DNA from: Azolla caroliniana
Lineage: Eukaryota > Plantae > Polypodiophyta
Direction: 5' to 3'
Length of the DNA stretch: 64,000 bases
NCBI GenBank assembly: GCA_043228905.1
Contig: JBHGNT010000017.1
Span: forward strand, 14,260,001 to 14,324,000
Both the position numbers and the translations under genes were made by a program. Position 1 is the first letter of the stretch. Each line of letters opens with the position of its first letter. The notes under the pieces were generated by a model, which searched no databases, was not told the DNA's origin, and was given only the letters and a program-made list of their open reading frames with translations. Positions 708 to 51,530 of this stretch are shown one piece after another.

Positions 708-2051
708 CTTAAAATTGTGATTACAATGTTGTCAAAGATATTTGCATGTACATGCACAGGAACAAATCAGGCTTTTTACATACCAATGTGGGTCGACGAA
801 CAAATAACAATGCATGTATACACACCCTTATGTCGAGGGTTTCTGTTTCATATATCTTTGGCTTAGCCTTATTTCATTATTGTAGGAATAAATAGAACAC
901 CACTTCGTCTTCTAAGATTTATATATGATGAGTAGTCGGTCTATTGTTAGAAACTTTTAGAACTATGCAACTTCTATTTCTACGTTTTGGATATAATATC
1001 ACTTCTTGGTCTACGGAAAATGTTATCACGATATTATAAATCACCATTTGAAAGAATAACAAAACGGTGATATAAAGTCAACAAACTCAAAGGTGCATAG
1101 ACAAGGAAACATTAGAAACTTATATTATTAAATAGTCAATTAAATCTTTTTTAAGATTGCTTAAAGTGTGCGGCACTTCATCGAGGGTTGTTTGGGGTGG
1201 ACTCAAGTTTAGATCTTATTTGTATGTCTAAACATAAGTAGTGATATAGTTTTAGAAGAATAGAAAAGTGAGGGCGTGGGTGGGGGTTAGGGGAGTGTAG
1301 CTTGTTGAAATTATCAAAAGTATTTAAACCTAATCAAAGTTTTTAGAATATATTAAAGATCATTGGGATAACTTAAGTTATTAGACAACAATAACGTACT
1401 ATTAAAACACCAATATAGAGTATTATTAAAACGGGACCACACTCTTAGATGAACGGGAGTTGTTTAAACACACGCTTAAGCAAACACTTAAAAGAAAGAT
1501 TATTATAAAAAATAAGAATAAAAATAAAAATAGAAAAGAGAGATTGAGATTAAAAAATGATTATGGTTAAGAAGGGATTATGATTAAGGGGGAAGGGGTT
1601 GCTAAACAAAGTACTTAAACGAATGTTTAAACAAATATTTAGATAAGAAAACACTTGGGCAAACACTTAACGCAAGGTTAGGATTAAAAGAGAAGGGAGG
1701 GATTATGGTTAAAGAAAAGGGGTCATGGTTGAGAAGAGAATGATTATGATTAAGAGAGGAGAATACTTAAACAAATGTTTAAACAAAAAGTTAAACCTAA
1801 AAATGATTGAACAAGTACTTAAAAAAAAGGGGTTAAACAAGTACGTAATAAAAATGTTTATTAAACAAGTACTTAATAGAAAATGAATAAATAAATGCTT
1901 AAAAACTTAAGACAAAATTTTTTTTGATAAAAAAGTGATTAAACAAGTACTTAATAAAAATTTATTAAATAAGTACTTAAGAACTTAAGACAAAAAATTA
2001 GATAAGAGCAACACATAGAAGGAAATAAAGCTTTACTATCATAAGGCAACG

Positions 2052-2097
2052 ATCGGCAAATGCATTTCGCCTCGATGGAGGCTCTTCAGTGCCCGAT
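2052..2097 (-). ncRNA. Minimal type I hammerhead ribozyme
   Basis: Minus strand reads ATCGGGCA-CTGAAGA-GCCTC-CATC-GAGGC-GAAA-TGCA-TT-TGCCGAT: CUGANGA/GAAA core, 5-bp stem II, stem I with one bulge, and a palindromic minimal stem III. Confidence 0.85.
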
Positions 2098-2259
2098 GTA
2101 CAAATGATGAAAACTAAGCCTACTAGGTTGCTCTTTTTATAGGGAGAGGGAGGAGAGTCCTTTGTATGTGGGACATACAAAAGTGTGTACAAAGGGAAGG
2201 TACAAGAGTGTACACCAGACTTTAGGTGGGGGTTAAGAGGGGTGAGAGTACATAAAACA

Positions 2260-3993
2260 TTAGGTGGGGGGAAAGGATGCGTGTACTAGGTGGTTTCTTA
2301 GTTTTTTACCATTTAGCCAACACGTGAGAGGGGGTGTAAGGGAACTGTATTGTGGTTGTCCTAGAAGGGGTTTAAGTTTGTTTCTCACGAGCGCTCCGAT
2401 TTGGAGTTTTTTGATACATGGGGAGTATCGAAGCTTAAAAACAATGGGTGGAGGTTTTTTGTTGTTGGGTTGGTTAGAGAGTAGTTGGTTTCGTATGGAG
2501 TAGGGGACGGTCGAAAAACACTTGAGTAGGAACTTCGATGGGTAGCCCCTAGCTCTTAGGCGGTCGTAGAACTTTTTGTGTAGTTCCATGTAGCCATTTT
2601 CCGAGCTCTCCCGGATAGCATACCGTTTTAGTTCGCCCGTGATGAAGCCCTTTTTGTGTGCTATGGGGTGCGAGGATTTCCACGGGAGGTACATGTAGGC
2701 ATTGAGAGGTTTTTGGTGGCATGTGGTGTCGAGGATGCCGAATTCTTTAAAGTATGGGCCTTTGAAGAAGACGACGTCCAGGATGGTGATCTCTTTAGGG
2801 GAGGTTGTTGATTCAATACGGATGTGTTGTTGTAGAGGCACGCCGTATTGGTGTAAGAAGGTGTGAAGTGTATCAGGGGAACCTTCCCAAACTCCTATGG
2901 CATCATCGATGTAGCGTTTGTAGTAGAGTAGTTGCGGTGTTTGGAAAGCTAGGTTGTCGTCCTCTAGCTGCGAAAGAAACAAGCAAGCGTAAACAACCGC
3001 AAAATTACTACCCATCGCAGTGCCTTTAATTTGTAACCAAAAAGCATTATTAAAGGAGAGAAAATTGTTTCTAAGTATTAGTTCGGCAACACTCATAATG
3101 ATTTTGGTTTTGTGTGGTGGGAAATGATGTGAAATAGATTTTTTAAAAACCAATAGACCTTCCGGGGTAGGTATACTGGGATATAGTGACACTACGTCAA
3201 AAGAAAACAACATGCAAGTTTTGGGGAAGGTGTGGTGTGCTAGGTCCTTAACAAGTGTTAAGGAGTCTTTGAGGTGTTGTTTTTTAGACAATAAGACAGG
3301 ATGTAATAGATGGTGTAGCCATTTAGAGGCTCTTTCGAAAACATAATTGTTGTAGGCGCAAATAGGGCGTCCTACAACAATGGGCTTGTGGATTTTGGGG
3401 ATGATGTAGAAACGACATATCCTGAAACCATGTTTGGGTTTCTGAAGGAGGAATCTAATTTCCTCATTGGAGAGGTGGGGGGAAGCTTTCAGACATAGGT
3501 GTTCAAGTCGACTGCGGAGAGTTTCTAGGGGGACGTCTTTGACGGGGGTGTAAGTGTTTCTGTCGTTGAGCTGTCTAAGGCATTCGTTAAGGTACCAATC
3601 CTTAGAGAGAATGCACGTGCCTAGATTTTTATCCGCGGGTTTAATAACTATGTCTTGATTTTTTTTGAGATTATGTAGTGCAGTTCTAAAGTTCCTATGA
3701 GGGCGAGGTTGGATGGTGGGTGGGGAGGGGAGGGCAGAGGTGATAGATGTGATGGTTTGTGTGATTTCTGGCACGGCTGGGGGATTCCAACTGGGGTTCG
3801 GTATTCTAAATGGAGAGATAATGTTAGTAGAGTTTCTAAAGAAATATTTGAGGCAGTAAGTTCTATCCAAGGATACAACGACATCTATCAATTGTTGTTT
3901 TCTAATAGGTTGGGGTGGGGGAATAAAGTCTAGACCTAAGCTTAGAAGTTTGAGTTGGGGTGGAGGAAGGTGGAAAGAGGAAAGGTTGTGCAA
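2260..3993 (-). CDS. Penelope-type reverse transcriptase, no C-terminal GIY-YIG domain; frame stays open upstream to ~4650, probably entered by -1 frameshift
   Basis: Motifs NLSS..L...LLSLGLDFIP, IKPADKNLG, YIIPKIHK..GRPI, SFDVVSLYPSIP, GTAMGS, YKRYIDD, thumb YLPWKSSHP...RGYP. The ORF ends shortly after the thumb. Confidence 0.93.
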   Translation of the reverse strand: MHNLSSFHLPPPQLKLLSLGLDFIPPPQPIRKQQLIDVVVSLDRTYCLKYFFRNSTNIISPFRIPNPSWNPPAVPEITQTITSITSALPSPPTIQPRPHRNFRTALHNLKKNQDIVIKPADKNLGTCILSKDWYLNECLRQLNDRNTYTPVKDVPLETLRSRLEHLCLKASPHLSNEEIRFLLQKPKHGFRICRFYIIPKIHKPIVVGRPICAYNNYVFERASKWLHHLLHPVLLSKKQHLKDSLTLVKDLAHHTFPKTCMLFSFDVVSLYPSIPTPEGLLVFKKSISHHFPPHKTKIIMSVAELILRNNFLSFNNAFWLQIKGTAMGSNFAVVYACLFLSQLEDDNLAFQTPQLLYYKRYIDDAIGVWEGSPDTLHTFLHQYGVPLQQHIRIESTTSPKEITILDVVFFKGPYFKEFGILDTTCHQKPLNAYMYLPWKSSHPIAHKKGFITGELKRYAIRESSENGYMELHKKFYDRLRARGYPSKFLLKCFSTVPYSIRNQLLSNQPNNKKPPPIVFKLRYSPCIKKLQIGALVRNKLKPLLGQPQYSSLTPPLTCWLNGKKLRNHLVHASFPPT

Positions 3994-4061
3994 TGAGTGA
4001 TTAGTGATCCTATTCTCGAGCTGGGAGGGTGTTTGCCTTCCCAGTAAAATGTGGAGGTAGG

Positions 4062-5869
4062 TTAACGGTTGAAGAAGCGGGAGCCAATGTAATTTTCTAA
4101 GTCTACCCCTACGTATTTTCTTGGTAGAGGATTTAGTTTCGGTCCCGTGGTGCGTGTGTTGGGTGCGCCTTGCGGGACTGGGGGCCGGGGATGAGGAGTA
4201 GGTCGTTTGACTGTGGGCCGGGGGTAAGGCGTGGGTCGTGAAATTGGGGGTCGAGGGACTGGGGGTTGTGAAATTGGGGGTCGAGGGACTGGGGGTTGAA
4301 GGACTGGGGGTCGAGGAACTGAGGGTCGAGGATAGGACCGTGTGGTGGGTTTGAAGGTCTCGAAGTGAGACATTGATTGTTTCATAGGTGGGGGTAGGGA
4401 GGTAGGTGGTGGTACATTCATCGGGACAAATATAGGGTACGTGGGGGGTATGGGATGTGTGGGTGGTACGGGATAAGCATAGCTTTGTCCATAACTTGGG
4501 ATAAAGGACTGGGTCCTTAAGAAGGAGGTGGGGGCAGTGGGGGATGAATTTGATGCTTTGTGTGTCCTTGTGCCCCCATTTTTTGTCGGGGGCATAGCCG
4601 TGTTTTTTGGATGTGTGTTGGGGTTTTCCTTGATCTTTTTTAGCCCATCATCTATTAGAGTATTTATTGTTTTTTCTTTGCCCATCGTCATGGATTTCGA
4701 GACGATGGCGTCCTGGGCTGATTTATTAGCCACTTTAGTTTTAGCTTCTAAGGAAATCTGTATGCTAAATTCTAAGGTGGCTTGCTCTAGGTGGCTATTA
4801 AATTTAGCAAAAGTTTCATTTTTCCAATGTTGGAGTTTTTCCTCCCATTGGTGTGATGTGACAAGGTTGTGCAATGGGATATCCAAGAGCATTGATACAA
4901 TGTCTTGGAGTCTTTGCTCAACCGTGGTGGGGAACTTGTTGATAGTTTCAGTAAAACTAATAGCTAGGTTTTTTGGGCCTCTATTAACGCTAAGGTGCAA
5001 TTTTTTCTATATTCTGCAGTGAGATCGTTTAGTTTTTTATTGAGGATATTTTGTGCGTTTTCATTATTTATCGTTACCCTAGGAGGGTTAATGCGCAAGG
5101 AGTTAGGGATGAAGTTCTCCTTGAGATCGGTTTCATATTTATTGAGTACATCTTGGGCTCTATGGCGTTTAGACAAGAGTTCTTTATATTCTAATACGGA
5201 GCCTTGGCAAATGGTGTCAAAGTGGATGGGAATAGGTAAGTTTTCTAAAGAGTTTTGTGCCTCGAGGGGCGGGTTTGAGTTTTCTATGCTAGTTTTTCCC
5301 TTTTCTTGTGTGTTTGGGGTTGTTATTTTCCTTTTACCTTTGTCTTGTGGACGTGGGTTTGTGTGGGTGTGGTGGTCGCTAGAGGACACATGGGCGTGTT
5401 CAAAAGGAGATTTTGTTATTGTAGGCATGCAAAGGGGATCTCCACCACCCCATTCTAGGGGAGGTGAGCTAAAGGTATTAAACAACTTCTGAAAGAAGAT
5501 GACCTTCTTTGCGGGCGAGAGTTTGGTGATGAATTCTTTATAACCTTCCATTTTAAGGTCTTCTAAGTTTTCTATGAGTGAACTAAATGGAGATTTGGGG
5601 GAGGGGGAGGGAATGCTTTGCGTGCTACTAGGGCTAGTTGGGGCTAAATCTAGTTGTAGCATCCTAGATGGCGGGGGGATTTTTTTAGGTGGGGATTTGG
5701 GGTTGTTAAGACACACATTATATAGATGTTGGATTTCATGTGGGACTTCGTTATTTGTAAATTGACAAGAAAGAGGGTGGGGTGAGTGAGCTTCCCTGTT
5801 TACAACGGTCGTTTGAGTGTTGGCGACGACGTGCTTGAGATTGGTCGTCATTGGTGGAGAATCCGGCAC
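4062..5869 (-). CDS. PLE ORF1 (coiled-coil plus proline-rich), split by a 1-nt indel in an A6 run at ~4970 and open up to the 5' truncation junction
   Basis: ORFs 4964-5869 and 4062-5000 join (EAQK/NLAISF) if one A is added. Helical segment ..KYETDLKENFIPNSLRINPP.. and 30-bp PRPPISQPPV repeats. Confidence 0.72.
4571..4608 (-). promoter_or_regulatory. Putative -1 programmed ribosomal frameshift signal
   Basis: A_AAA_AAC heptamer in the ORF1 frame (4608-4602), a 7-nt spacer, then hairpin TGCCCCC-GACAAAAAAT-GGGGGCA. The -1 frame is stop-free from here into the RT. Confidence 0.75.
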
Positions 5870-5916
5870 AAAGTCGATGGTGGTTGTGGGTAGATCCGTC
5901 GGTATGTCGGCGATGA

Positions 5917-6349
5917 TGTTTTCTTTTGACGTAGTGTCACTATATCCCAGTATACCTACCCCGGAAGGTCTATTGGTTTTTAAAAAATCTATTTCACATC
6001 ATTTCCCACCACACAAAACCAAAATCATTATGAGTGTTGCCGAACTAATACTTAGAAACAATTTTCTCTCCTTTAATAATGCTTTTTGGTTACAAATTAA
6101 AGGCACTGCGATGGGTAGTAATTTTGCGGTTGTTTACGCTTGCTTGTTTCTTTCGCAGCTAGAGGACGACAACCTAGCTTTCCAAACACCGCAACTACTC
6201 ACTACAAACGCTACATCGATGATGCCATAGGAGTTTGGGAAGGTTCCCCCGATACACTTCACACCTTCTTACACCAATACGGCGTGCCTCTACAACAACA
6301 CATCCGTATTGAATCAACAACCTCCCCTAAAGAGATTACCATCCTGGAC
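5917..6349 (+). repeat. Inverted copy of PLE RT core segment (2776-3209)
   Basis: Near-identical reverse complement with a 1-nt deletion; ORFs 5817-6230 and 6140-6442 repeat the RT peptides. Confidence 0.95.
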
Positions 6350-6561
6350 TATGAAACTTTTAGAACTATGCAACTTCTATTTCTACGTTTTGGATATAAT
6401 ATCACTTCTTGGTCTACGGAAAATGTTATCACGATATTATAAATCACCATTTGAAAGAATAACAAAACGGTGATATAAAGTCAACAAACTCAAAGGTGCA
6501 TAGACAAGGAAACATTAGAAACTTATATTATTAAATAGTCAATTAAATCTAATTTCATAGT

Positions 6562-6647
6562 CAGACCTTAGCTCAGTTGGTAGAGCGGAGGACTGTAGTG
6601 TATGTATAGACATCCTTAGGGCGTTGGTTCGAATCCGACAGGTCGGA
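6562..6647 (+). tRNA. tRNA-Tyr(GTA) with intron; C2A acceptor mismatch
   Basis: Array copy directly downstream of the PLE duplication. Confidence 0.85.
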
Positions 6648-7543: not shown

Positions 7544-10500
7544 TGTTGGGATTTCGGTCCCTCCGGATGGGATGTCCGGAGATGAATGACGGCAAGCCCG
7601 GTTGCGGTTACGGAACCGGATGATGAAGAGTACCCGGCATGAAGCCGGATGAAGAGTACCCGGATACGGATCCGGATGATGAAGACCCCGGCTACGGAGC
7701 CGGATGCTGAAGACCCCGGCTACGGAGCCGGATGACGAATGTACCCGGAGAGAGATCCGGATGCGGGGACATATTTGTGAATATGTTTGCCAAGAGCCCT
7801 TGAGGCTATATTTGTAAATAGCCCGAAAGTCATATGTGTATAAATATGACTTAGGGCAAACAGTTTGTTGTTGTTGCTCATTTTTCTGTTTTCCACGAAG
7901 AGGGAGCGAAGTGAGAGCAGCCGAGAGAGAGAGAGAGAGAGAGAGACGAAGAGGTCGTTGCCTCTGTGTATTACCGCCGCCTGTGGCGAAGACAGTGAGC
8001 TCAAGGTTGTTGCCTTGCAGCTTCACCAGTGTACATCCCTGTTCATAGTGATCGTTGGAGTTAGAGGACTCCCGTGGTTTTTTCCCATTTAGGGTTTTCC
8101 ACGTAAAATATCCAGTGTACCTTTCTCTCTATTGTCCTCGTGCACTTTGTATTTCCCGTTTTCTGTGAGTTGATCCTATTCCTCGGTTGTGGCCGAGCGC
8201 TGTCTGCAACAAAGTGGTATCAGAGCGACGGTAACACAGAAAATGGAAGGCGGCGGTAGTGGGCCTCCGGGCATGATGGTGTTGAACTCACAGAACTACG
8301 CCGACTGGAAGATAAAGATGGAAGACCTTCTCATCGTCCGAGACCTGTACGAACCGATCGACAATGCCGAGATACCCAAGGGGGTAATAGAGTCGGAGTG
8401 GAAGCTCCTGAACCGGAAAGCCGTAGCGACGATCCGGCAATATGTCGATGTAAGTGTTCTGCAACATGTCGCGAACGATACGAACGCCTATGAGATGTGG
8501 CGGAAGCTGTCGGGCCTCTACGAGAGGAAGAATGCGTTGAACCGGACCTCCCTGATGAGGAAGATAGTGAACCTCAAGTACCGGGACGGCGAGAGTATGG
8601 TGGAACACGTAAGCACGTTCATGGGATTCGTGAACCAGCTTGCGGCGATCAAGTTCCCGTTGGAGGATGCAATGCAAGCCATCATCCTGATGTGTACATT
8701 GCCGGAAAGCTGGGAGAACTTGGTGGTGACTCTCAGCACCTCCTGCACCGAAGAAAACTTGTCCCTACAAACGGTAAAGACAAGTATTTTGAACGAAGAA
8801 GCGCGTCGGAGAGATAAAGAACCGGCCTCCGATCCGAAGATGCTGCTTACCGAATCGGATCGGGGAAGACAACGGAACCGGAGTCCGCAAAGATGGGAGA
8901 AGTCGGGGACCCGGTCGCAGTCAAGAGGAAGGCCCACATGCTTCCACTGTGGGAAGCCGGGGCACTTCCGGAAGAATTGTCGGCATTACCGAAAAGACAA
9001 CGGAGCCGACGACACCGATTCGAAGAAGTCACCGGAGCGAAACGGCGCATACCGGGGAGCCACGGACCGGAGAGGTCCGGATCGGCGAGGGCAGGACCGG
9101 AAAGGAACGACGGCACTCGCGGCAAGTGAAGAAGAGATAATGCTCATTACCGAAGAGAGGGAGCTGAACCTTGCCGGTGAAGAGATGACCTGGGTGGTCG
9201 ATTCCGGAGCGTCGTTCCACCTGACACCGGAGAAGAAATACTTCTCATCCTACACAGCCGGTGAGCACGGCTGTGTCCGGATGGGAAATGAAGGTACATG
9301 CCGGATTGCCGGCATAGGAGACGTGTGGCTGATGACATCAACCGGATGCAAGATGCTGCTGAAGGATGTACGACACGTTCCGGAGGTCCGATTGAACCTG
9401 ATTTCGGCCAAGAGGCTAGACGATGAAGGCTACACAGGTAGCATCCGGAACGGTGTCATGAAGTTCAGCAAAGGGAGCCTGATAGTGGCTCGGGCCCGGA
9501 AGGTCAACACACTGTACCTGATGAATTCCCGGCTATGTCCGGAGGAGCTGAACGTGGCAGCCAATACTGCCGGTGAGCTATGGCACAAGAGACTGTGCCA
9601 CATGAGCGAGAAGGGGATGAAGAGGCTTGCCGAAGACAACCTGATACCGGTAAAGCATTTACACTTGGGGAAGTGTACCGACTGTCTGGCCGGTAAGCAA
9701 AACCGGACCTCCTTCCACTCAAGGCCACCGACGAGACGTAGCGCACCATTGGAGTTGGTGCACACTGACGTGTGTCAGGTAGAAACGAAGTCACATGGCG
9801 GAGCCCAATACTTTGTAACATTCATAGATGACCATAGCCGGAAGCTGTGGACGGCACTGTTGAAGACAAAGGACCAAGTATTGTCCGTCTTCAAAGAACT
9901 CCACGCGAGAGTGGAAAGGGAATCCGGCAAGGAGCTGAAAGCGATACGAGCGGATAACGGAGGGGAATACCGGGGGCAGTTCGAGGAGTACTGTCGCTCG
10001 AAGGGAATCCGGCTCGAGTTTACTGTGCCGAAGACGCCGGAACTGAATGGGCTGGCCGAGAGGATGAACCGGACCATAATGGAGAGGGTCCGGAGTATGC
10101 TGGCGCATGCGAAATTACCCAAGGGGTTTTGGGCTGAGGCAATGTCGACGGCGACATACATGATAAACAGATCACCCTTAGTACCTTTGGACGGAGACAC
10201 GCCGCAGAGAGTGTGGACCGGTAGGGAAGTATCCTACCGGCATCTGAAGGTGTTCGGGTGTCTCGCATACGTGCATGTGGCAAAGGACCGGAGAGGAAAG
10301 TTAGATCCAAAGACCCGGCCATGCATATTCCTCGGTTACGGCGACGACGAGTTCGGCTACCGAGTATGGGACCCGGTCGACAAAAAGATATTCCGGAGTC
10401 GTGATATCATCTTCATGGAGGACAAGACACTCGCCGACTGGGAGTCGGAGAAGAAGATGAAGAGCTCCAAGTCGACCGGTGAGGATCAACTCTACGAGGA

Positions 10501-12993
10501 GCAGTCCCGACCGGCAAGGGACCGGTTAGCACTCGAGGATCCGGCCGAAGACGGTGAAGAAACAGAACCGGCCGAGGAAGATGAAACTGATACCGAAACC
10601 GGCCCCGATCCCGAAATGGATTCGGATGAAGAGGAAACGGAGGAGCCGGTTACCGAAGCTCCGGAACGGAGATATCCTCTAAGAGAGAGAAGGGCCCCCC
10701 GGAGATTTCCGGAACCAGAGCACGTGCTGCTAACCGACGAGGGGGAGCCGGAGAGTTTTGAAGAAGCAAAGCTTGACACCCATAGCCGCAGGTGGTTAAG
10801 TGCCATGCAGGAGGAGAGGAATTCCCTGCATGAGAACCACACATATGAACTTGTGGAGTTGCCGAAAGGAAAGCGGGCGCTTCGAAACAAGTGGGTGTTC
10901 AAGCTGAAACCGGGAGATGCCGGAAACCCCCCGAGATACAAAGCCAGGATCGTGGTGAAGGGGTTCCAGCAGAAGAAAGGCGTCGACTTCGACGAGATAT
11001 TTGCCCCGGTAGTGAAGATGACCTCCATCCGGACGGTGCTGAGCATAGCGGCAAGCATGGACCTCGAGGTAGAACAGATGGACGTGAAGACGACATTCCT
11101 TCACGGGGACCTCGAAGAAGAGATCTACATGCAGCAACCAGAAGGATTCGAGAAGAAAGGGAAGGAGCACCTGGTATGCCGGTTGAAGAAGAGCCTTTAC
11201 GGACTGAAGCAGGCTCCCCTGCAATGGTACCGGAAGTTCGACTCTTTCATGACCGACGAAGGGTACCACAAAACGCAGTCCGATCACTGCATGTTTGTGA
11301 AGAAGTTCGAAGGAGGAGATTTTCTAATACTCCTCCTGTACGTGGACGACATGTTGATCGTCGGACGGGACCAGGTCAAGATACGGATGCTGAAGAAAGC
11401 GCTTCACCGAACCTTCTCAATGAAGGACCTGGGTCCGACGAGGCAAATACTAGGGATGCACATCATCCGGGACCGGAAGAAGAAGCAGTTGTGGCTGTCA
11501 CAGGAGAAGTACGTGACAAAGGTGCTTCACCGGTTCAACATGTCGGAAGCAAGACCGGTCGGGTCAACCCTCCCGGCAAACTGCAAGCTGTCCAGCAAGC
11601 AAAGCCCCAAGACAAGGGCTGAGAAGGAGGACATGATGAAAGTACCATATGCCTCTGCCGTCGGAAGCTTGATGTACGCAATGGTGTGTACCCGACCAGA
11701 CATTGGATACGCAATCGGAGTGGTGAGCCGGTATATGAGTAATCCCAGCAAGGAGCACTGGAACGCGGTCAAATGGATACTCCGATACTTAAAGGGCACT
11801 TCGAACATGTGCCTCCGATTCGGCTCCGGTAAGCCCGAACTCGATGGATTTACCGATTCGGACATGTCGGCTGATGCGGATACCAGCCGGTCTACATCAG
11901 GGTATGTAATGACATATGCAGGGGGAGCTGTTTCGTGGCAGTCGAGGTTGCAGAAGACGGTTGCGTTGTCAACCACGGAGGCGGAGTACATGGCGGCTGT
12001 TGAAGCCGGCAAGGAAATAATTTGGATGAAGGACTTCATTAAAGAGCTCGGTATCCGGCAGGAGGAGTACCGCTCTACTGCGATAGTCAGAGTGCCATCC
12101 ACCTTGCGAAGAACGCGGCCTACCATTCCCGGACGAAACACATCCAGCGTAGATACCACTGGATCTGGGAAAGGATAGAAGATAAAGAGCTCGTACTGAC
12201 GAAGGTCCACACGGACGAGAACGGGTCGGATATGCTGACCAAGGTGCTCACACCCGACAAGCTGGAAGCATGCCGGAAGAGGATCGGATTGGAGAGACAT
12301 CCCATGCCGAAGTGAAGGGGGAGTTTGTTGGGATTTCGGTCCCTCCGGATGGGATGTCCGGAGATGAATGACGGCAAGCCCGGTTGCGGTTACGGAACCG
12401 GATGATGAAGAGTACCCGGCATGAACCCGGATGAAGAGTACCCGGATACGGATCCGGATGATGAAGACCCCGGATACGGAGCCGGATGCTGAAGACCCCG
12501 GCTACGGAGCCGGATGACGAATGTACCCGGAGAGAGATCCGGATGCGGGGACATATTTGTGAATATGTTTGCCAAGAGCCCTTGAGGCTATATTTGTAAA
12601 TAGCCCGAAAGTCATATGTGTATAAATATGACTTAGGGCAAACAGTTTGTTGTTGTTGCTCATTTTTCTGTTTTCCACGAAGAGGGAGCGAAGTGAGAGC
12701 AGCCGAGAGAGAGAGAGAGAGAGAGAGACGAAGAGGTCGTTGCCTCTGTGTATTACCGCCGCCTGTGGCGAAGACAGTGAGCTCAAGGTTGTTGCCTTGC
12801 AGCTTCACCAGTGTACATCCCTGTTCATAGTGATCGTTGGAGTTAGAGGACTCCCGTGGTTTTTTCCCATTTAGGGTTTTCCACGTAAAATATCCAGTGT
12901 ACCTTTCTCTCTATTGTCCTCGTGCACTTTGTATTTCCCGTTTTCTGTGAGTTGATCCTATTCCTCGGTTGTGGCCGAGCGCTGTCTGCAACA
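7544..12993 (+). mobile_element. Young full-length Ty1/Copia LTR retrotransposon (Tnt1/Tork-like)
   Basis: 668-bp LTRs at 7544-8211 and 12326-12993 (TG..CA, ~2 differences seen), TSD AAGGA, tRNA-iMet PBS TGGTATCAGAGC at 8215, PPT GAAGGGGGAG. Confidence 0.97.
8243..12315 (+). CDS. Copia gag-pol polyprotein (gag, zinc knuckle, PR, INT, RT, RNase H) with one frameshift at ~12075
   Basis: CFHCGKPGHFRKNC, WVVDSGASFH, LWHKRLCH, integrase core, YVDDML, RNase H TDSD. A 1-nt deletion relative to the sister copy lies near the end. Confidence 0.93.
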
Positions 12994-13049
12994 AAGGATA
13001 CAATAGACAATTATAATATAACATAGTCAATTAAATCTAAATTCATAGT

Positions 13050-14993: not shown

Positions 14994-15445
14994 CTTAAAA
15001 TTGCGATTACAATGTTCTCAAAGATATTTGCATGTACATGCACAGGAACAAATCAGGTGTTTTACATACCAATGTGGGTTGACGAACAAATAACAATGCA
15101 TGTATACACACCCTTATGTCGAGGGTTTGTGTTTCATATATCTTTGGCTTAGCCTTATTTCATTATTGTAGGAATAAATAGAACACCACTTCGTCTTCTA
15201 AGATTGTATATATGATGATTAGTCGGTCTATTATTAGAAACTTTTAGAACTATGCTACTTGTATTTCTATGTTTTGTATATAATATCACTTCTTGGTCTA
15301 TGGAAAATGTTATCACGATATTATAAATCACAATTTGAAAGAAAAACAAAACGGTGATATAAAGTCAACAAAATCATAGGTGCATAGACAAGGATACAAT
15401 AGAGAATTATAATATTACATAGTCAATTAAATCCAAATTCATAGT

Positions 15446-15531
15446 CCGACCTTAGCTCAGTTGGTAGAGCGGAGGACTGTAGTGTATGCATAGAAATCCT
15501 TAGGTCGTTGGTTCGAATCCGACAGGTCGGA
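15446..15531 (+). tRNA. tRNA-Tyr(GTA) with intron, consensus intact
   Basis: Full cloverleaf. Confidence 0.95.
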
Positions 15532-15983
15532 CTTAAAATTGCGATTACAATGTTCTCAAAGATATTTGCATGTACATGCACAGGAACAAATCAGGCGTTT
15601 TACATACCAATGTGGGTCGACGAACAAATAACAATGCATGTATACACACCCTTATGTCGAGGGTTTCTGTTTCATATATCTTTGGCTTAGCCTTATTTCA
15701 TTATTGTAGGAATAAATAGAACACCACTTCGTCTTCTAAGATTGTATATATGATGATTAGTCGGTCTATTATTAGAAACTTTTAGAACTATGCTACTTGT
15801 ATTTCTATGTTTTGTATATAATATCACTTCTTGGTCTATGGAAAATGTTATCACGATATTATAAATCACAATTTGAAAGAAAAACAAAACGGTGATATAA
15901 AGTCAACAAAATCATAGGTGCATAGACAAGGATACAATAGAGAATTATAATATTACATAGTCAATTAAATCCAAATTCATAGT

Positions 15984-16069
15984 CCGACCTTAGCTCAGTT
16001 GGTAGAGCGGAGGACTGTAGTGTATGCATAGAAATCCTTAGGTCGTTGGTTCGAATCCGACAGGTCGGA
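15984..16069 (+). tRNA. tRNA-Tyr(GTA) with intron, consensus intact
   Basis: Full cloverleaf. Confidence 0.95.
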
Positions 16070-16521
16070 CTTAAAATTGCGATTACAATGTTCTCAAAGA
16101 TATTTGCATATACATACACAGGAACAAATCAGGCGTTTTACATACCAATGTGGGTCGACGAACAAATAACAATGCATGTATACACACCCTTATGTCGAGG
16201 GTTTCTGTTTCATATATCTTTGGCTTAGCCTTATTTCATTATTGTAGGAATAAATAGAACACCACTTCGTCTTCTAAGATTGTATATATGATGATTAGTC
16301 GGTCTATTATTAGAAACTTTTAGAACTATGCTACTTGTATTTCTATGTTTTGTATATAATATCACTTCTTGGTCTACGGAAAATGTTATCACGATATTAT
16401 AAATCACAATTTGAAAGAAAAACAAAACGGTGATATAAAGTCAACAAAATCATAGGTGCATAGACAAGGATACAATAGAGAATTATAATATTACATAGTC
16501 AATTAAATCCAAATTCATAGT

Positions 16522-16607
16522 CCGACCTTAGCTCAGTCGGTAGAGCGGAGGACTGTAGTGTATGCATAGAAATCCTTAGGTCGTTGGTTCGAATCCGACA
16601 GGTCGGA
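16522..16607 (+). tRNA. tRNA-Tyr(GTA) with intron; T17C in D-loop
   Basis: Full cloverleaf. Confidence 0.93.
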
Positions 16608-17059
16608 CTTAAAATTGCGATTACAATGTTCTCAAAGATATTTGCATGTACATGCACAGGAACAAATCAGGCGTTTTACATACCAATGTGGGTCGACGAA
16701 CAAATAACAATGCATGTATACACACCCTTATGTCGAGGGTTTCTGTTTCATATATCTTTGGCTTAGCCTTATTTCATTATTGTAGGAATAAATAGAACAC
16801 CACTTCGTCTTCTAAGATTGTATATATGATGATTAGTCGGTCTATTATTAGAAACTTTTAGAACTATGCTACTTGTATTTCTATGTTTTGTATATAATAT
16901 CACTTCTTGGTCTACGGAAAATGTTATCACGATATTATAAATCACAATTTGAAAGAAAAACAAAACGGTGATATAAAGTCAACAAAATCATAGGTGCATA
17001 GACAAGGATACAATAGAGAATTATAATATTACATAGTCAATTAAATCCAAATTCATAGT

Positions 17060-17145
17060 CCGACCTTAGCTCAGTTGGTAGAGCGGAGGACTGTAGTGTA
17101 TGCATAGAAATCCTTAGGTCGTTGGTTCGAATCCGACAGGTCGGA
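17060..17145 (+). tRNA. tRNA-Tyr(GTA) with intron, consensus intact
   Basis: Full cloverleaf. Confidence 0.95.
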
Positions 17146-17597
17146 CTTAAAATTGCGATTACAATGTTCTCAAAGATATTTGCATGTACATGCACAGGAA
17201 CAAATCAGGCGTTTTACATACCAATGTGGGTCGACGAACAAATAACAATGCATGTATACACACCCTTATGTCGAGGGTTTCTGTTTCATATATCTTTGGC
17301 TTAGCCTTATTTCATTATTGTAGGAATAAATAGAACACCACTTCGTCTTCTAAGATTGTATATATGATGATTAGTCGGTCTATTATTAGAAACTTTTAGA
17401 ACTATGCTACTTGTATTTCTATGTTTTGTATATAATATCACTTCTTGGTCTACGGAAAATGTTATCACGATATTATAAATCACAATTTGAAAGAAAAACC
17501 AAACGGTGATATAAAGTCAACAAAATCATAGGTGCACAGACAAGGATACAATAGAGAATTATTATATTACATAGTCAATTAAATCCAAATTCATAGT

Positions 17598-17683
17598 CCG
17601 ACCTTAGCTCAGTAGGTAGAGCGGAGGACTGTAGTGTATGCATAGAAATCCTTAGGTCGTTGGTTCGAATCCGACAGGTCGGA
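17598..17683 (+). tRNA. tRNA-Tyr(GTA) with intron; T17A
   Basis: Full cloverleaf. Confidence 0.92.
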
Positions 17684-18134
17684 CTTAAAATTGCGATTAC
17701 AATGTTCTCAAAGATATTTGCATGTACATGCACAGGAACAAATCAGGCGTTTTACATACCAATGTGGGTCGACGAACAAATAACAATGCATGTATACACA
17801 CCCTTATGTCGAGGGTTTCTGTTTCATATATCTTTGGCTTAGCCTTATTTCATTATTGTAGGAATAAATAGAACACCACTTCGTCTTCTAAGATTTATAT
17901 ATGATGATTAGTCGGTCTATTATTAGAAACTTTTAGAACTATTCAACTTCTATTTCTACGTTTTGGATATAATATCACTTCTTGGTCTACGGAAAATGTT
18001 ATCACGATATTATAAATCACAATTTGAAAGAAAAACAAAACGGTGATATAAAGTCAACAAAATCATAGGTGCATAGACAAGGATACAATAGAGAATTATA
18101 ATATTACATAGTCAATTAAATCCAAATTCATAGT

Positions 18135-18220
18135 CCGACCTTAGCTCAGTTGGTAGAGCGGAGGACTGTAGTGTATGCATAGAAATCCTTAGGTCGTTGG
18201 TTCGAATCCGACAGGTCGGA
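18135..18220 (+). tRNA. tRNA-Tyr(GTA) with intron, consensus intact
   Basis: Full cloverleaf. Confidence 0.95.
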
Positions 18221-18672
18221 CTTAAAATTGCGATTACAATGTTCTCAAAGATATTTGCATGTACATGCACAGGAACAAATCAGGCGTTTTACATACCAAT
18301 GTGGGTCGACGAACAAATAACAATGCATGTATACACACCCTTATGTCGAGGGTTTCTGTTTCATATATCTTTGGCTTAGCCTTATTTCATTATTGTAGGA
18401 ATAAATAGAACACCACTTCGTCTTCTAAGATTGTATATATGATGATTAGTCGGTCTATTATTAGAAACTTTTAGAACTATGCTACTTGTATTTCTATGTT
18501 TTGTATATAATATCACTTCTTGGTCTACGGAAAATGTTATCACGATATTATAAATCACAATTTGAAAGAAAAACCAAACGGTGATATAAAGTCAACAAAA
18601 TCATAGGTGCACAGACAAGGATACAATAGAGAATTATTATATTACATAGTCAATTAAATCCAAATTCATAGT

Positions 18673-20259: not shown

Positions 20260-23200
20260 TGTGAAATGCTCAAGATGTGAAATGCTCTCAAGAATAGCCC
20301 CCTTTTCATTATGTCTCAAGTTACATTTTATAGACTCTCTCTTAGCGTGGAGGGTGTTCTCCCGCTCCAATTAGCTCTACTAATTATGGGGCTTGGTGGG
20401 GGCCTAGGTTGGGTGTGGTGCATGAGGCTTGGTAGGGGCCTAATTTGGGTGTGGTGCATGTGTGGTGCATGGGGCCTAGTAGGGGCCTAATCTAGGTGTG
20501 GTCCATGTGACCACCACAATTCCCCCTTGTAAAAAAAAAGTTACTGTGCAGTCGAAGCGCGACGAGGCGTGGAAGACGGTTCCAGACGGGGGGATGACAG
20601 GGGCGTGGGCATAGGCATGAGTGTGGGCGGGGGCGGTGGTAGTTGATGGAAGGGCTTCATGCGAGACTGGTGTGCAAAGGTAGAGCGGTTGTTGGAGGCG
20701 CGGCGGAGCAGGTATGTAGTGTTGCGTATCTGCTTTTGAACTTCGAAGGGACCGATCCATCGTTGCATGAGCGATTCGCTGAGACCGCGACGACGGATGG
20801 GGAAGTAGACGAGGACTTTGTCACCGACGTGGTATTGATGGTCGACACGGCCTATATCGTGTTGTCGTTTTTGGCGTAGTTGTGCCTGGTGCAGGTTGCT
20901 CGTGATGGCTTTGCGGAGGAGGGGCTGGAGTTGTTGTAGGTGGGACCACCAAGACACTGCGTCAGCGTGGAGTCGTGTGGTTGGTTGCGGGACTGCCACT
21001 TCTGGGGGTAAGCGCGGGTCCCTTCCGTAAAGGGCCCGAAATGGGCTAATGCGGGTAGAGGCTTGCACAGTTGTGTTGTAGGCATGCGTAACGAAGGGCA
21101 AGATTCAGTCCCAGGTTGAGTGCAGCGGATCGATGTAGGCTGAGATTTGTTGTTTTAAGGTTCGATTGAGGCGCTCCATCAACCCATTCGTTTGCGGATG
21201 GTAGGGTGACGTGAATAACTGTTGGATTCCTACTTGTGTTGAAACGAGGCGTAGGAGCTCACCGTTGAACTGGGGTCCTCGATCGGACAAGATTTGGAGT
21301 GGGCAACCGTGGGGGAAGATGATTTTCTCCAATAGTTTGGAGGCGATGGTCATAGCCTTTGCATTTGGGATAGCGGCCGTCTCAGCCCAACGCGTCAAGT
21401 ACTCGGTGATGATGAGGATGAATTTGTTCCCTCCTTGTGACTCGGGAAAGGGGCCCATAATGTCCCATCCGACGATTTCAAATGGAGCTTGAACTTGTAT
21501 CGGATGTAAGAGGCCTTGAGCCACTTGAGGTGATTTGATGGCCTGACATAAGTTGCATGCTTTGATGTAGGAGGCGACCTCGTGGCGTAGCCCAGGCCAA
21601 TAGAATTTGCGACAAATTTTGTCGAGCACCTTATGAAAACCCAAGTGGCCGGACAACGGGTGATCGTGGAAGAAACGAAGGTAAGACTGGCGTAGTTGCT
21701 CAGGCACGTAGACTCGGGGTTCTTTGCCTACTTGACAAAAAAGTAGGACATTATCCTGGATCATGAATTGCTTGGTGAGGGATGATGTCGGTTCAGCTTG
21801 TAGGCGGTGGCAGATATCTTGGATTTGTTTGTCGTGTTGTTGCATGTTGGCCATTTGGGACGAGGATATGGGGAAATTCATTGTGTTGGAGGTGATCTGG
21901 TTCGCCTGAAAGAATATGCGGGATAATCCATCGGCGACGATGTTTTGTGGACCATGGCGATAGCGCAGAGTGAATGTGTAATCCTGTAGCGCCAAAACCC
22001 AACAAAGTAAGCGGCCGGGTGGATGAGCCTTCTTTATGAGGGAGAGCAATGGCTGATGGTCGGTTTCGACTGATGTATTTGATCCGTGAAGGTATGGGTG
22101 GAAACGATGGAATGCCCAGACGATGGCGAGGAACTCTTTTTCAGTTGTCGAGTAATTTTGTTCGGCTTTGGTAAGTGACCGACTGATGTAGGCAATCGGG
22201 CGGAGTTGGTCGTTGTCGTCGGATTGGAGCAGGACCGCACCAAGGCCGACATTGGAGGCATCCGTCTGCAGATGGAAAGGCTTCGTGAAATCAGGGTGGG
22301 CCAGGAGGTCAGAGGCTTGGAGTGTTCTCTTGAGCTGCAGGAAGCTGGATTCGCAGGCTTCGGTCCACAGGAAGGGTGCGTCTTTTTGTAGGAGCGCGCG
22401 TAGTGGGGCTGACAGGTCGGCTAGCCGTGGGATGAAACGAAGAGAGAACGTGAGGAGGCCGAGGAAGCGTTGAAGCTGCTTGACTGTGGTGGGGCGTGGG
22501 AATTTTTGGACTGCTTCTGTCTTCTCCGGGTCCATTTGTATTCCGTCGAAGGAGATGACGTACCCAAGGAAGCGGAGGCACGTACTACCCCATCGGCACT
22601 TCTTCCATTGCAGCTGCAATCGATAGCGTTGAACACAAGTTAGGACCTCCCGAAGGACTTGAAGGTGTTCTGCCCAAGTGCTTGTATGTACCAGAATATC
22701 GTCTAGATAGACGATGACGACACGGCGGGTGATGAGATCATCGAAGATGGCATTAGCCATTCGCTGGAATGTGCTTCCCGCATCAGATAGGCCAAAGGGC
22801 ATCCGTGTGAACTGAAAAATGCCTTTTCTAGTGCGGAATGCAGTTTTGTGTGCATCGTGAGGATTCATCGAGATCTGCCAATATCCCGAGGCTAGATCTA
22901 GGGAGGTGAAGTACTTTGATTTGCCAAGCTGGTCGAGGAGGTCATCGATACGAGGGAGAGGGTATCGGTCATGGGTGGTGACATGGTTCAGTTGTCGGAA
23001 GTCGACACAAAAGCGGTAAGAACCATCTCCTTTCTTTACCATGTGTGGCTCCGAGATCCACTCGCTCTTGGAAGGTGTGATAATCCCTTGTTGGAGCATA
23101 GTTTTGACGGCATTGTCGATGCGCTCGTGGTCGAGAGGCGAGCGACGTCGGGGAGCTGCGTTGATGGGGCGGGCGTTGCCTGTAGGAATCGTGTGGTGAA

Positions 23201-23882
23201 TCGGAAAACGGACCGAGGGAGGTTTTACAGGTGGTGTAGACAACGACGGAAAGGTGGCGAGGAGCCGTCTGATGTCGTTGATACGCTCCGCCAGTGATAT
23301 CAGGTGCTGTGTGTTGCTGATGTGGGTGGTATCCCGCGGAGTAGTGAAGAGCGCGATCGCAATGTGATTTGGGAGGATGAGCTGTTGTGCGGAGAAATCG
23401 AGACAGGCTCGACTATGGAGGAACCAATCACATCCCAAGGTGATTGGGAACAACTGGCGCGGGAGGACGTAGAAACGATGGTGGATCTGGGCGAAACTAA
23501 TGGTGAGCATGCACCTGATTTGCTTATGTGAGTGGTACACCCGTTGTTGGTCGCCGAAGAGGATTTTAATGGGCGGTGCGTGGCTCGTAGGAAGTTGTAA
23601 TTGGGTCGTCATCTCCACCAAGATGTGAAATGCTCAAGATGTGAAATGCTCTCAAGAATAGCCCCCTTTTCATTATGTCTCAAGTTACATTTTATAGACT
23701 CTCTCTTAGCGTGGAGGGTGTTCTCCCGCTCCAATTAGCTCTACTAATTATGGGGCTTGGTGGGGGCCTAGTTTGGGTGTGGTGCATGAGGCTTGCTAGC
23801 GGCCTAATTTGGGTGTGGTCTATGTGTGGTGCATGGGGCTTGGTAGGGGCCTAATCTAGGTGTGGTCCATGTGACCACCACA
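20260..23882 (-). mobile_element. Ty3/Gypsy LTR retrotransposon, internally deleted (no gag)
   Basis: 259-bp LTRs at 20260-20518 and 23624-23882 (~7 differences), 4-bp TSD ATAT, PBS TGGTGGAGATG (tRNA-Ala), PPT AAGGGGGAAT. Confidence 0.93.
20541..23621 (-). pseudogene. Gypsy pol: C-terminal half of protease, RT, RNase H, integrase; in-frame stop at ~21105
   Basis: RFCVDFRQLN, YLDDIL, TDAS, GHLG..C..C, SDRGPQF, HPQTNGLMER, WIGPF. Confidence 0.9.
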
Positions 23883-23971
23883 ATATAAAGTCAACAAACT
23901 CATGGGTGTATAGACAAGAAAACATTAGAAACTTATATTATTAAATAGTCAATTAAATCTAATTTCATAGT

Positions 23972-47665: not shown

Positions 47666-48377
47666 AGGCCAAGCGGAGAAAAGGGAAGCGAAGGACACGT
47701 CGACACCGTTACAGCAAGGGAACTAAGAAGGACCAAACAAGCAGACAAGCCGACTGGAAGGGTTGAAGCGCGCGGAATCGAACGGGTCGAGGAGCGCAAG
47801 CGAGGTGTGAAGCCAGAAGTAACCGGAGTGTAGATCCGGAAGAGCAGACAAAACCTCAAGTTCAGCTTGAGGGGGAGTGTTGAGATACAAGCTCAACATT
47901 GGGTGCGTAATATGACGTGTAACTTAGTGCGTAGGCTGAACGCGTAAGTTAGTACGCACAACTTGGCCATATTGGTGCGTAAACCGAAAGGCCGTTGGAA
48001 AGCTATTCCTCGTAAGGAATAATTTTGGGAGTAAGTGTCGCGGCTCATTTATGAGCAGTCAAGTATTGTCAGTACTTGTGTCAGCCCGATTGTCAAGGCT
48101 TGTATAAAAGGTGCTCATTGAGCACGGTGTATGTACATAATAGAGAATTATTTTGAATTTGATCTATTGTGTTTCTCTGTCTATGTCTCTCCCTCTCCCT
48201 CTCCATCTCTGTGTTTTCTGTGTTTACTGAACTCTATACTGTGCCTTTTACGCACATGCTTCCACACAACATATTCTTTTACATATATGTTATCACGATA
48301 TTATAAATCACCATTTGAAAGAAAAACAAAACGGTGATATAAAGTCAACAAATTCATAGGTACATAGACAAGGAAAT

Positions 48378-51300: not shown

Positions 51301-51485
51301 GTTCCTCATCCGACTGGTCATCCCGATTCAGCCGCTCATTCGGTCCACTGAACTGAAATGAGATCAGACTCTCTTCTAGAGTGCCGAGGTCTTCATCTAC
51401 CTGGACCGATTCAGGCTCACTAGCCTCATCCTCCAGTATCGGGTCGAGGTCGGAAGTCGGCGCCGGTAAGGCATACCATGATGTT
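48378..51485 (-). mobile_element. 5'-truncated Copia (3' LTR plus degenerate RT/RNase H)
   Basis: LTR at 48378-48815 with adjacent PPT (CTCCCCCTCAAG on +); RT/RH ORFs at 49257-51532. Confidence 0.88.
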
Positions 51486-51530
51486 GTTTCCTTGTCTATG
51501 CACCTATGAATTTGTTGACTTCTGATCACC

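What the first reader, a model, noticed from the sequence alone, without database searches (positions are those of the whole stretch)
1148..6352. Endonuclease-less Penelope-like retroelement (ORF1, -1 frameshift, RT, hammerhead) inserted in a tRNA gene array rather than a telomere
Seen: an intact PLE RT that stops after the thumb with no GIY-YIG domain, an upstream coiled-coil ORF1, a frameshift signal and a 3' hammerhead. Its 3' end joins 12 nt upstream of a tRNA-Tyr gene position, and there are no telomeric repeat tracts at either junction. Known: EN-minus PLEs (Athena, Coprina and relatives) are mainly described as priming on telomere ends. Inference: this may be a plant EN-minus PLE lineage that uses 3'-OH ends generated at Pol III genes or tRNA arrays (stalled forks or breaks).
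Basis: partly seen in the sequence, partly recalled or inferred. Interest (0 to 1): 0.85.

Follow-up and report, generated by a model that had tools for sequence, protein, structure and literature searches.

The report
Endonuclease-less retroelement patched an internal break
A plant jumping gene that has no DNA-cutting enzyme, of a kind known mainly from chromosome tips, sits inside a tRNA gene array between two identical 198-base copies of the target, which likely records how such elements patch internal DNA breaks, but nothing here shows that the family seeks out tRNA genes.

Summary
In detail: a minus-strand Penelope-like element (PLE) with an open RT frame that ends after the thumb, no GIY-YIG in any frame, a helical ORF1, a conserved -1 frameshift signal, a type I hammerhead, and a 3' end 11-12 bp upstream of a tRNA-Tyr position with no telomeric tract. 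The RT groups with Selaginella, Ginkgo and Cryptomeria proteins and shares the RT4 motif of the Selaginella reference beside Coprina, so it is the known plant EN-minus lineage. tRNA targeting is not supported: 12 contig ends at the same 3' terminus in 3 of 4 runs match nothing in this array, and 0 of 6 related loci hold a tRNA. Targeting of dispersed tRNA genes is untested. Best reading: an endonuclease-free insertion at a staggered break whose two ends were joined through element cDNA, in a spacer that LTR elements also hit. EN-less, non-telomeric plant PLEs are already in print, with the mechanism stated as open; this copy is a useful footprint of it.

The parts
950..1147 (+). Left copy of the 198-bp target-site duplication (tRNA-Tyr array spacer, positions -209 to -12 of the unit)
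   Evidence: 100% identical to 6353-6550; nearest other array unit differs at 4 sites, and removing the insert plus one copy restores 537-bp spacing against a 538-bp period
1148..1243 (-). Element 3' terminus: short A run, conserved motif at 1182-1159 and a hairpin at about 1239-1204
   Evidence: Motif and hairpin kept in L002, L003, L005; single match in the window; same end point in other copies (table 7)
2054..2095 (-). Type I hammerhead ribozyme motif with 5-bp stem II and palindromic minimal stem III; predicted cut after 2059
   Evidence: Core CTGAAGA and GAAA conserved in L001-L006; cleavage not tested
2260..4647 (-). ORF2 (-1 frame), PLE reverse transcriptase ending after the thumb and linker; no endonuclease
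   Evidence: Open frame; 8 of 593 residues differ from L001; homologs and trees; EN profile negative
4571..4608 (-). Predicted -1 ribosomal frameshift signal: A AAA AAC, 7-nt spacer, 8-bp stem with 8-nt loop
   Evidence: 32 of 32 cells paired in 4 sequences, 2 pairs changed on both sides in L003 (32 of 500 shuffles reach it, so modest)
4062..5915 (-). ORF1, helical core plus proline-rich tail; 5'-truncated, 1-nt deletion at 4966, 45-nt in-frame deletion at 4629
   Evidence: One unbroken ORF in L001-L003; base present in all 4 runs laid (table 4); alignment to L001; fold of the L001 core
5913..6349 (+). Inverted 437-bp copy of the RT interior (3213-2776), joined to the truncated ORF1 through a 3-nt microhomology (ATG)
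   Evidence: 99.1% identity; shares 3 variants with the main copy that L001 and L002 lack; junction sequences
6350..6352 (+). 3-nt filler matching neither element nor target
6353..6550 (+). Right copy of the target-site duplication
6562..6647 (+). Intron-containing tRNA-Tyr-type gene copy, one of 22 tRNA matches of the array in this window
   Evidence: Rfam RF00005, 51.8 bits; ARAGORN did not call this copy

Best explanation
This is a dead, 5'-truncated copy of a plant endonuclease-less Penelope-like retroelement of the Selaginella (Coprina-group) lineage, which likely inserted by using the two free 3' ends of a pre-existing staggered break in a tRNA-gene spacer rather than by seeking tRNA genes. 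Shown: the anatomy, the 198-bp duplication, the inverted piece and the lineage. Inferred: active copies make ORF1 and, by -1 frameshift, an ORF1-RT fusion; the RNA is likely processed by the hammerhead and recognised at its 3' hairpin. The top-strand 3' end at 1147 primed cDNA at the RNA 3' terminus and ran 4.77 kb. The other end of the break (bottom strand at 950) was joined through a second 437-nt copy of the RT interior, either primed from that end on a second RNA or made by fold-back of the first cDNA, and closed with a 3-nt microhomology and a 3-nt filler. Fill-in of the 198-nt stagger gave the duplication. The source of the stagger is inferred to be host-made; a fork stalled just before the tRNA gene is my preferred source but rests on one copy.
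For: No EN in any frame; 0 of 100 search hits at 33% identity or more carry it, and 79 of the 82 of these that reach the C-terminal region end within 30 residues of where this RT ends; all 18 EN+ hits are at 32.4% or less. Clade with Selaginella, Ginkgo, Cryptomeria: FastTree 0.994 (88 of 158 eligible rows), SH-aLRT 97.2 (41 rows). GTAMGSNFAVVYAC and no IFD as in row 'Selagine1' of Fig. S1 of PMC8557442, and in no other row on that page. TSD and restored spacing. Main and inverted pieces share private variants. 12 contigs in X5, X8, X6 end at 1147 and continue into mutually unlike sequence, agreement 0.53-0.55. L003 lies beside exons of what I recognise from memory as a tomosyn-like gene, with 16 nt of telomere G-strand repeat at its 5' junction, as expected where a broken end was extended. 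Three LTR elements and a fourth break fall at -52, -86, -145 and about -50 of the same unit (circular test p 0.013 to 0.08).
Against: A 198-bp clean duplication is not what simple break capture gives: EN-independent L1 insertions were defined by lack of TSDs and 18 of 21 deleted target DNA (PMC1920257, passages). In L1 twin priming the two cDNAs meet within 1-10 bp (PMC11702581, passages), whereas here they overlap by 437 bp and stop 2.7 kb apart. There is no microhomology between the right target end and the RNA. Only one insertion has both junctions resolved; L003 shows no TSD (longest match 9 nt) and may be a chimeric short-read contig. The 3' flanks are short (medians 38, 47, 245 nt), up to one per run may be the head-to-tail read-through seen in L001 and L002, and they cannot exclude dispersed tRNA genes. 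The spacer clustering was noticed after the fact and the region is also the most AT-rich part of the unit.
Confidence: 0.62

Rival explanations
1. The family is specialised for Pol III genes: it primes on nascent-strand ends at forks stalled by the Pol III complex just upstream of tRNA genes, across many tRNA loci.
For: 3' junction at -11/-12 of a tRNA gene; precedent for precise EN-less targeting of a repeated RNA gene, PLE-X1 in Selaginella 28S rDNA (PMC8557442, results and supplement sheet); unrelated 3' flanks are what dispersed tRNA upstream regions would look like; the window subfamily has no telomere-complement stretch at its 3' end.
Against: No second copy among the 22 tRNA matches of the window; no listed contig joins the element end to another place in this spacer (tables 5 and 7; 163 loose-end rows not shown); 0 of 2 informative 5' flanks (L003 1437 bp, L004 1330 bp) and 0 of 2 3' flanks (L003, L005) of the 85-86% sister family hold a tRNA.
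Confidence: 0.13
2. The nicks were made in trans by an endonuclease of another element (a LINE, or an EN+ PLE), and this RT only used them, as a non-autonomous partner.
For: A clean TSD with both ends preserved is the signature of staggered nicks in L1 work (PMC11702581, passages); the junction reads T/AA on the primed strand.
Against: L1-type staggers are 7-20 bp (PMC1920257, passages), not 198; the site CT/AA is a poor match to TTTT/A; no EN+ PLE closer than 32.4% identity was found, though the host genome could not be searched.
Confidence: 0.15
3. The family is an ordinary telomere-attaching Coprina-type element; this copy is a rare stray, and the window may be subtelomeric.
For: Telomere-complement stretches are kept: AAACCCTAAACCCTAA in the L001 5' UTR and CCCTAAACC at the 3' ends of L003 and L004; head-to-tail junctions in L001, L002, L004.
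Against: No telomeric tract in the window; none of the three consensus strings of loose ends at 1147 is telomeric, though they are mixtures; depth over the RT and 3' UTR is several times that over ORF1 in X5, X6 and X8, as for many 5'-truncated copies (table 2; not a copy number).
Confidence: 0.1

Closest known systems
Coprina-group EN-minus PLEs of Selaginella moellendorffii (Sm1/Sm2; Gladyshev and Arkhipova 2007, not held; seen through PMC8557442, PMC4209133, PMC13159263)
   Same: RT clade and RT4 motif, DKN motif, no IFD, no EN, type I hammerhead, head-to-tail tandems, telomere-complement stretches in family members.
   Different: This copy is interstitial, has no telomeric repeat at either junction and carries a 198-bp TSD; its hammerhead has a minimal palindromic stem III, whereas the Selaginella ones are described as canonical (PMC4209133, passages).
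EN(-) PLEs of conifers (Lin et al. 2016, not held; seen only as cited in PMC9033089)
   Same: Plant EN-less PLEs; Cryptomeria and Ginkgo proteins are 38-47% identical and in the same clade.
   Different: Their insertion sites and junctions could not be compared because the paper was not available.
PLE-X (EN-less Chlamys subclade) of Selaginella and Chara (PMC8557442)
   Same: EN-less, hammerhead-bearing, non-telomeric plant PLEs; one targets a repeated RNA gene (28S rDNA); mechanism stated as unknown.
   Different: PLE-X lie in the Naiad/Chlamys clade with CxC-type motifs; this RT has no IFD and groups with the Selaginella Coprina-type proteins; no precise target shown here.
Athena / Terminon and two-ORF fungal Coprina (PMC8557442 Fig. 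1 legend; PMC13159263)
   Same: Coiled-coil ORF1 optionally separated from RT by a frameshift; hammerhead; EN-minus.
   Different: Those attach to telomeric repeats at chromosome ends; here a stem-loop, not a demonstrated pseudoknot, follows the slippery site.
L1 twin priming and EN-independent L1 insertion (PMC11702581, PMC1920257)
   Same: 5' inversion, microhomology at the inversion junction, use of both ends of a break.
   Different: TSD about ten times longer; the inverted piece duplicates 437 bp already copied; no EN is encoded.

Membership tests
Penelope-like elements (order) | PLE-type RT with N-terminal GxKF/DKG-region motifs and thumb | tested here: met
   Motifs located; homologs grade into GIY-YIG-bearing PLEs
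Penelope-like elements (order) | 5' truncation, partial tandems (pLTR) and an inverted truncated copy at the 5' end | tested here: met
   Truncation and inverted piece; tandems in L002-L004; the inverted piece is internal rather than a 3' end
Coprina (EN-minus PLE clade) | No GIY-YIG endonuclease N- or C-terminal | tested here: met
   including full-length units L001 and L002
Coprina (EN-minus PLE clade) | RT phylogeny with named Coprina elements | tested here: inconclusive
   Groups with an S. moellendorffii protein that closely matches row 'Selagine1' by eye; no named Coprina, Athena, Naiad or Chlamys reference sequence was in the tree
Coprina (EN-minus PLE clade) | Hammerhead motif in the 3' region | tested here: met
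   (motif only; activity untested)
Coprina (EN-minus PLE clade) | Short reverse-complement telomeric repeats in the element | tested here: inconclusive
   Absent from this truncated copy; present in the L001 5' UTR and at sister-family 3' ends
Coprina (EN-minus PLE clade) | Attachment to telomeric repeats at chromosome ends | tested here: not met
   This copy is inside a tRNA array with a TSD; L003-L005 flanks are non-telomeric; whether some family copies are telomeric could not be tested
Naiad/Chlamys including PLE-X | IFD between RT3 and RT4 | tested here: not met
   RT3-RT4 spacing (residues 281-340) equals the IFD-less rows of Fig. S1
Naiad/Chlamys including PLE-X | N-terminal GIY-YIG or CxC motif before RT | tested here: not met
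   No EN profile hit (profile built from C-terminal ENs, so less sensitive to Chlamys ENs); the region before RT is a helical ORF1 and shows no conserved CxC
Penelope/Poseidon (Dryad), Neptune, Nematis, Hydra | C-terminal GIY-YIG after the thumb | tested here: not met
   Stop codon follows the linker in window and L001-L005
Pol III-targeting retroelements (Ty3-like; recalled) | Most copies at a fixed distance upstream of tRNA genes | tested here: inconclusive
   One copy at -11/-12; array-specific targeting not seen; sister-family flanks negative; dispersed tRNA genes not testable without the genome

The most novel reading that the evidence does not exclude
A plant Coprina-lineage retroelement has left telomeres and primes on nascent DNA ends at replication forks stalled by the Pol III complex; the 198-bp duplication is one Okazaki-fragment-sized offset between the leading-arm end and the lagging-arm gap of sister chromatids joined through the element's cDNA. 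This would give endonuclease-less PLEs a general, nuclease-free route into chromosome interiors and tRNA genes.
Probability: 0.15. Interest if true: 0.78.

Novelty: new variant of a known kind. Interest (0 to 1): 0.42.

Why it matters
Craig et al. 2021 state that it remains to be seen how EN-less plant PLEs insert genome-wide or into rDNA. A young interstitial copy with both junctions intact, a 198-bp TSD and cDNA at both ends of the break is a direct footprint of that process and gives a measurable prediction (TSD length and distance to Pol III genes across copies). It also extends the Selaginella/conifer EN-minus lineage to a multi-copy family with a well-conserved -1 frameshift. As a claim of tRNA targeting it is a single event and should not be taken as shown.

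Tried and rejected
Whole-genome mapping of copies: no genome held. RT search in viral and prokaryote collections: 0 relatives; 3'-end motif in the same collections: 0 matches. No RNA holder listed, so nothing on expression. PDB sequence search: 0. ORF1: Pfam only sub-threshold helical families; Atlas recognition too low to use; first fold without depth was poor, pLDDT 43; Foldseek of the better model found no match at E 0.001; the wider structural search was not run. A crude heptad score was uninformative. The break in ORF1 near 4966 as a programmed frameshift: rejected, the missing base is present in all 4 runs and in L001/L002. The 198-bp repeat as mere array similarity: rejected, it abuts both junctions and restores the period, although three other pairs of units are also identical over this stretch. 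Rfam found no ribozyme in window or loci. IQ-TREE with ultrafast bootstrap timed out; SH-aLRT used instead. [quoted passage not shown] 2017, Lin et al. 2016. Earlier-findings look-ups by sequence and by words were empty; two searches returned mostly an unrelated Gypsy topic.
Full report
What is there. The window opens in a tandem array of intron-containing tRNA-Tyr-type genes with a period near 538 bp; Rfam lists 22 tRNA matches. At 1148-6352 the array is interrupted. On the minus strand, reading from the right, lie a truncated ORF1, an overlapping open ORF2 (2260-4647) and a 1.1-kb 3' UTR. ORF2 holds all PLE RT motifs and stops after the thumb and a short linker.

The target is duplicated: 950-1147 equals 6353-6550 at 198 of 198 bases. 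The nearest of the 19 other array units compared differs at 4 sites, and removing the insert and one copy leaves 537 bp between tRNA starts. Three other pairs of units are also identical over this stretch, so identity alone is not proof, but position and spacing are. The 5' end is an inverted 437-bp copy of the RT interior (5913-6349 = 3213-2776), joined to the cut ORF1 by ATG microhomology and to the target by a 3-nt filler. The two RT copies share three variants absent from L001 and L002 and differ at three internal sites, so they came from one source and are young. ORF1 lacks its start, has a private 1-nt deletion at 4966 and a 45-nt deletion at 4629. Since RT has no start of its own in this frame and likely needs ORF1, the copy is dead.

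Expression signals. A AAA AAC sits in ORF1 phase 39 nt after the -1 frame opens, followed by 7 nt and an 8-bp stem. It is kept in L001-L004, with two pairs changed on both sides in the L003 subfamily (four related sequences, 32 of 500 shuffles reach the value). The hammerhead has stem I, a 5-bp stem II and a palindromic minimal stem III, conserved in all six loci; such forms are thought to act as dimers (PMC4209133, passages). A terminal hairpin and 24-nt motif are kept at the 3' end of both subfamilies. The ORF1 core has 22 relatives among cluster representatives and folds as three long helices and a fourth (pLDDT 81) with no significant structural match.

Lineage. The RT search returned 1555 proteins, 120 listed; named top hits are Cryptomeria, Selaginella moellendorffii, Ginkgo and Closterium. 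The search for longer forms returned 61; the closest are ORF1-RT fusions of Closterium without EN. Of 181 non-redundant hits, 0 of 100 at 33% identity or more carry the EN and all 18 EN+ lie at 32.4% or less. FastTree on 88 of 158 eligible rows (cluster members dropped, unlabelled rows thinned) puts the window RT in a clade with Selaginella, Ginkgo and Cryptomeria at 0.994; IQ-TREE on 41 rows gives SH-aLRT 97.2, with Closterium as sister. No named Coprina or Athena sequence was in these trees. The link is by eye to Fig. S1 of PMC8557442, where row 'Selagine1', listed beside CoprinaP1, has the same GTAMGSNFAVVYAC and no IFD. I take this as the Selaginella EN-minus lineage called Coprina Sm1/Sm2 (names seen in PMC13159263). 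An earlier unchecked note calls the host a fern; I did not test that.

Is it tRNA-targeted? No genome was held. Contigs of four runs were laid on 720-6555, which covers the spacer but not the tRNA body. At 1147, 4 contigs of X5, 3 of X8 and 5 of X6 continue into sequence that fits nothing in the stretch and agrees among contigs at only 0.53-0.55; none was shown for X10, and 163 loose-end rows were not shown. So other copies end at the same base but not in this array. Against over-reading: the flanks are short, up to one per run may be the tandem read-through, and upstream regions of dispersed tRNA genes would look the same. Six related loci hold no tRNA. Only L003-L005 have true flanks, and they belong to a sister family at 85-86% identity: two 5' flanks of 1437 and 1330 bp, where a tRNA would be expected in the window's geometry, and two 3' flanks. 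L003 abuts host exons and has 16 nt of G-strand telomere repeat at its 5' junction, and L003 and L004 end in CCCTAAACC: the lineage keeps telomere-type signals yet sits at internal sites. Within the window, three LTR elements and one more break fall at -52, -86, -145 and about -50 of the same unit, p 0.013 to 0.08 by a post hoc circular test. The spacer upstream of these tRNA genes thus looks open to unrelated elements, which explains the site without special targeting.

Mechanism. A TSD with cDNA on both sides implies two 3' ends offset by 198 nt. The left one primed at the RNA 3' end (2-nt match to the read-through RNA at most). The right one was closed by the inverted piece, made either by priming on a second RNA or by fold-back; the sequence cannot tell these apart. 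With no EN encoded, the ends were likely host-made. Plain break capture usually deletes target DNA (PMC1920257, passages) and L1 staggers are short, so I favour a replication-linked offset, for example a fork stalled before the tRNA gene; that Okazaki fragments are about 200 nt and that Pol III genes stall forks is recalled, not from a call. Confidence in opportunistic use of a break 0.62; Pol III targeting 0.13; borrowed endonuclease 0.15; stray of a telomeric family 0.10.

What is known. PMC8557442 (parts 1-6 of 10 of the text; supplement parts 1, 2, 54 of 59 and a term search) describes EN-minus PLEs as generally telomeric, inverted 5' copies as typical, and EN-less PLE-X families that are genome-wide in Chara or target 28S rDNA in Selaginella, with the mechanism open. 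PMC9033089 (passages) lists EN(-) PLEs in Selaginella and conifers. PMC12477314 and PMC10088271 (passages) add only the telomeric cases. Searches for PLEs at tRNA genes, internal Coprina copies or fern PLEs (listings only unless named above) found no such report, but the three primary papers on EN-minus PLEs were not held and may already describe internal copies or long TSDs.

Verdict. A real, well-formed observation; a known plant lineage; an interstitial variant with an informative 198-bp footprint; tRNA specialisation unproven and unlikely on present evidence. Interest 0.42.

Noticed in passing
window 7544-12996, 20260-23884, 27331-48284, 48376: A Copia element (LTRs 99.7% identical), a Ty3/gypsy element (261-bp LTRs), a third LTR element and one more break all interrupt the array within 150 bp upstream of a tRNA start (-52, -86, -145, about -50).
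   Followed up: partly
window 1-27324: Array of 22 intron-containing tRNA-Tyr-type genes in units of about 538 and 598 bp; several are degenerate, and blocks near 15237-18660 are nearly identical, suggesting recent homogenisation.
   Followed up: partly
L003:1437-1452: Sixteen bases of G-strand plant telomere repeat between host DNA and a 5'-truncated PLE copy at an internal site; may record telomerase seeding or PLE priming at a broken end.
   Followed up: partly
L001:237-252; L003:2529-2540 and 7772-7781; L004:4936-4947: Short telomere-complement stretches in the 5' UTR of the window's family and at the 3' end of the sister family; the window's subfamily ends in a short A run instead.
   Followed up: partly
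L004:1294-1330: A GC-rich stretch of about 40 nt of unknown origin between the AT-rich flank and the truncated element.
   Followed up: no
window 4608-4062: After the slippery site both frames stay open for about 180 codons in both subfamilies, with a conserved block read as CPHLLL-PVLYPKLW in the RT frame; dual coding or an RNA element.
   Followed up: no
L001:1076-1816: The ORF1 core is a conserved long-helix bundle with an IPxSLRxxPP loop, 22 relatives, fused to RT in Closterium and Ginkgo proteins, with no Pfam family or solved-structure match.
   Followed up: partly
window 48287-48376 and 51484-51545: Isolated pieces of the array spacer about 21 kb beyond the main array, the second inverted.
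   Followed up: no
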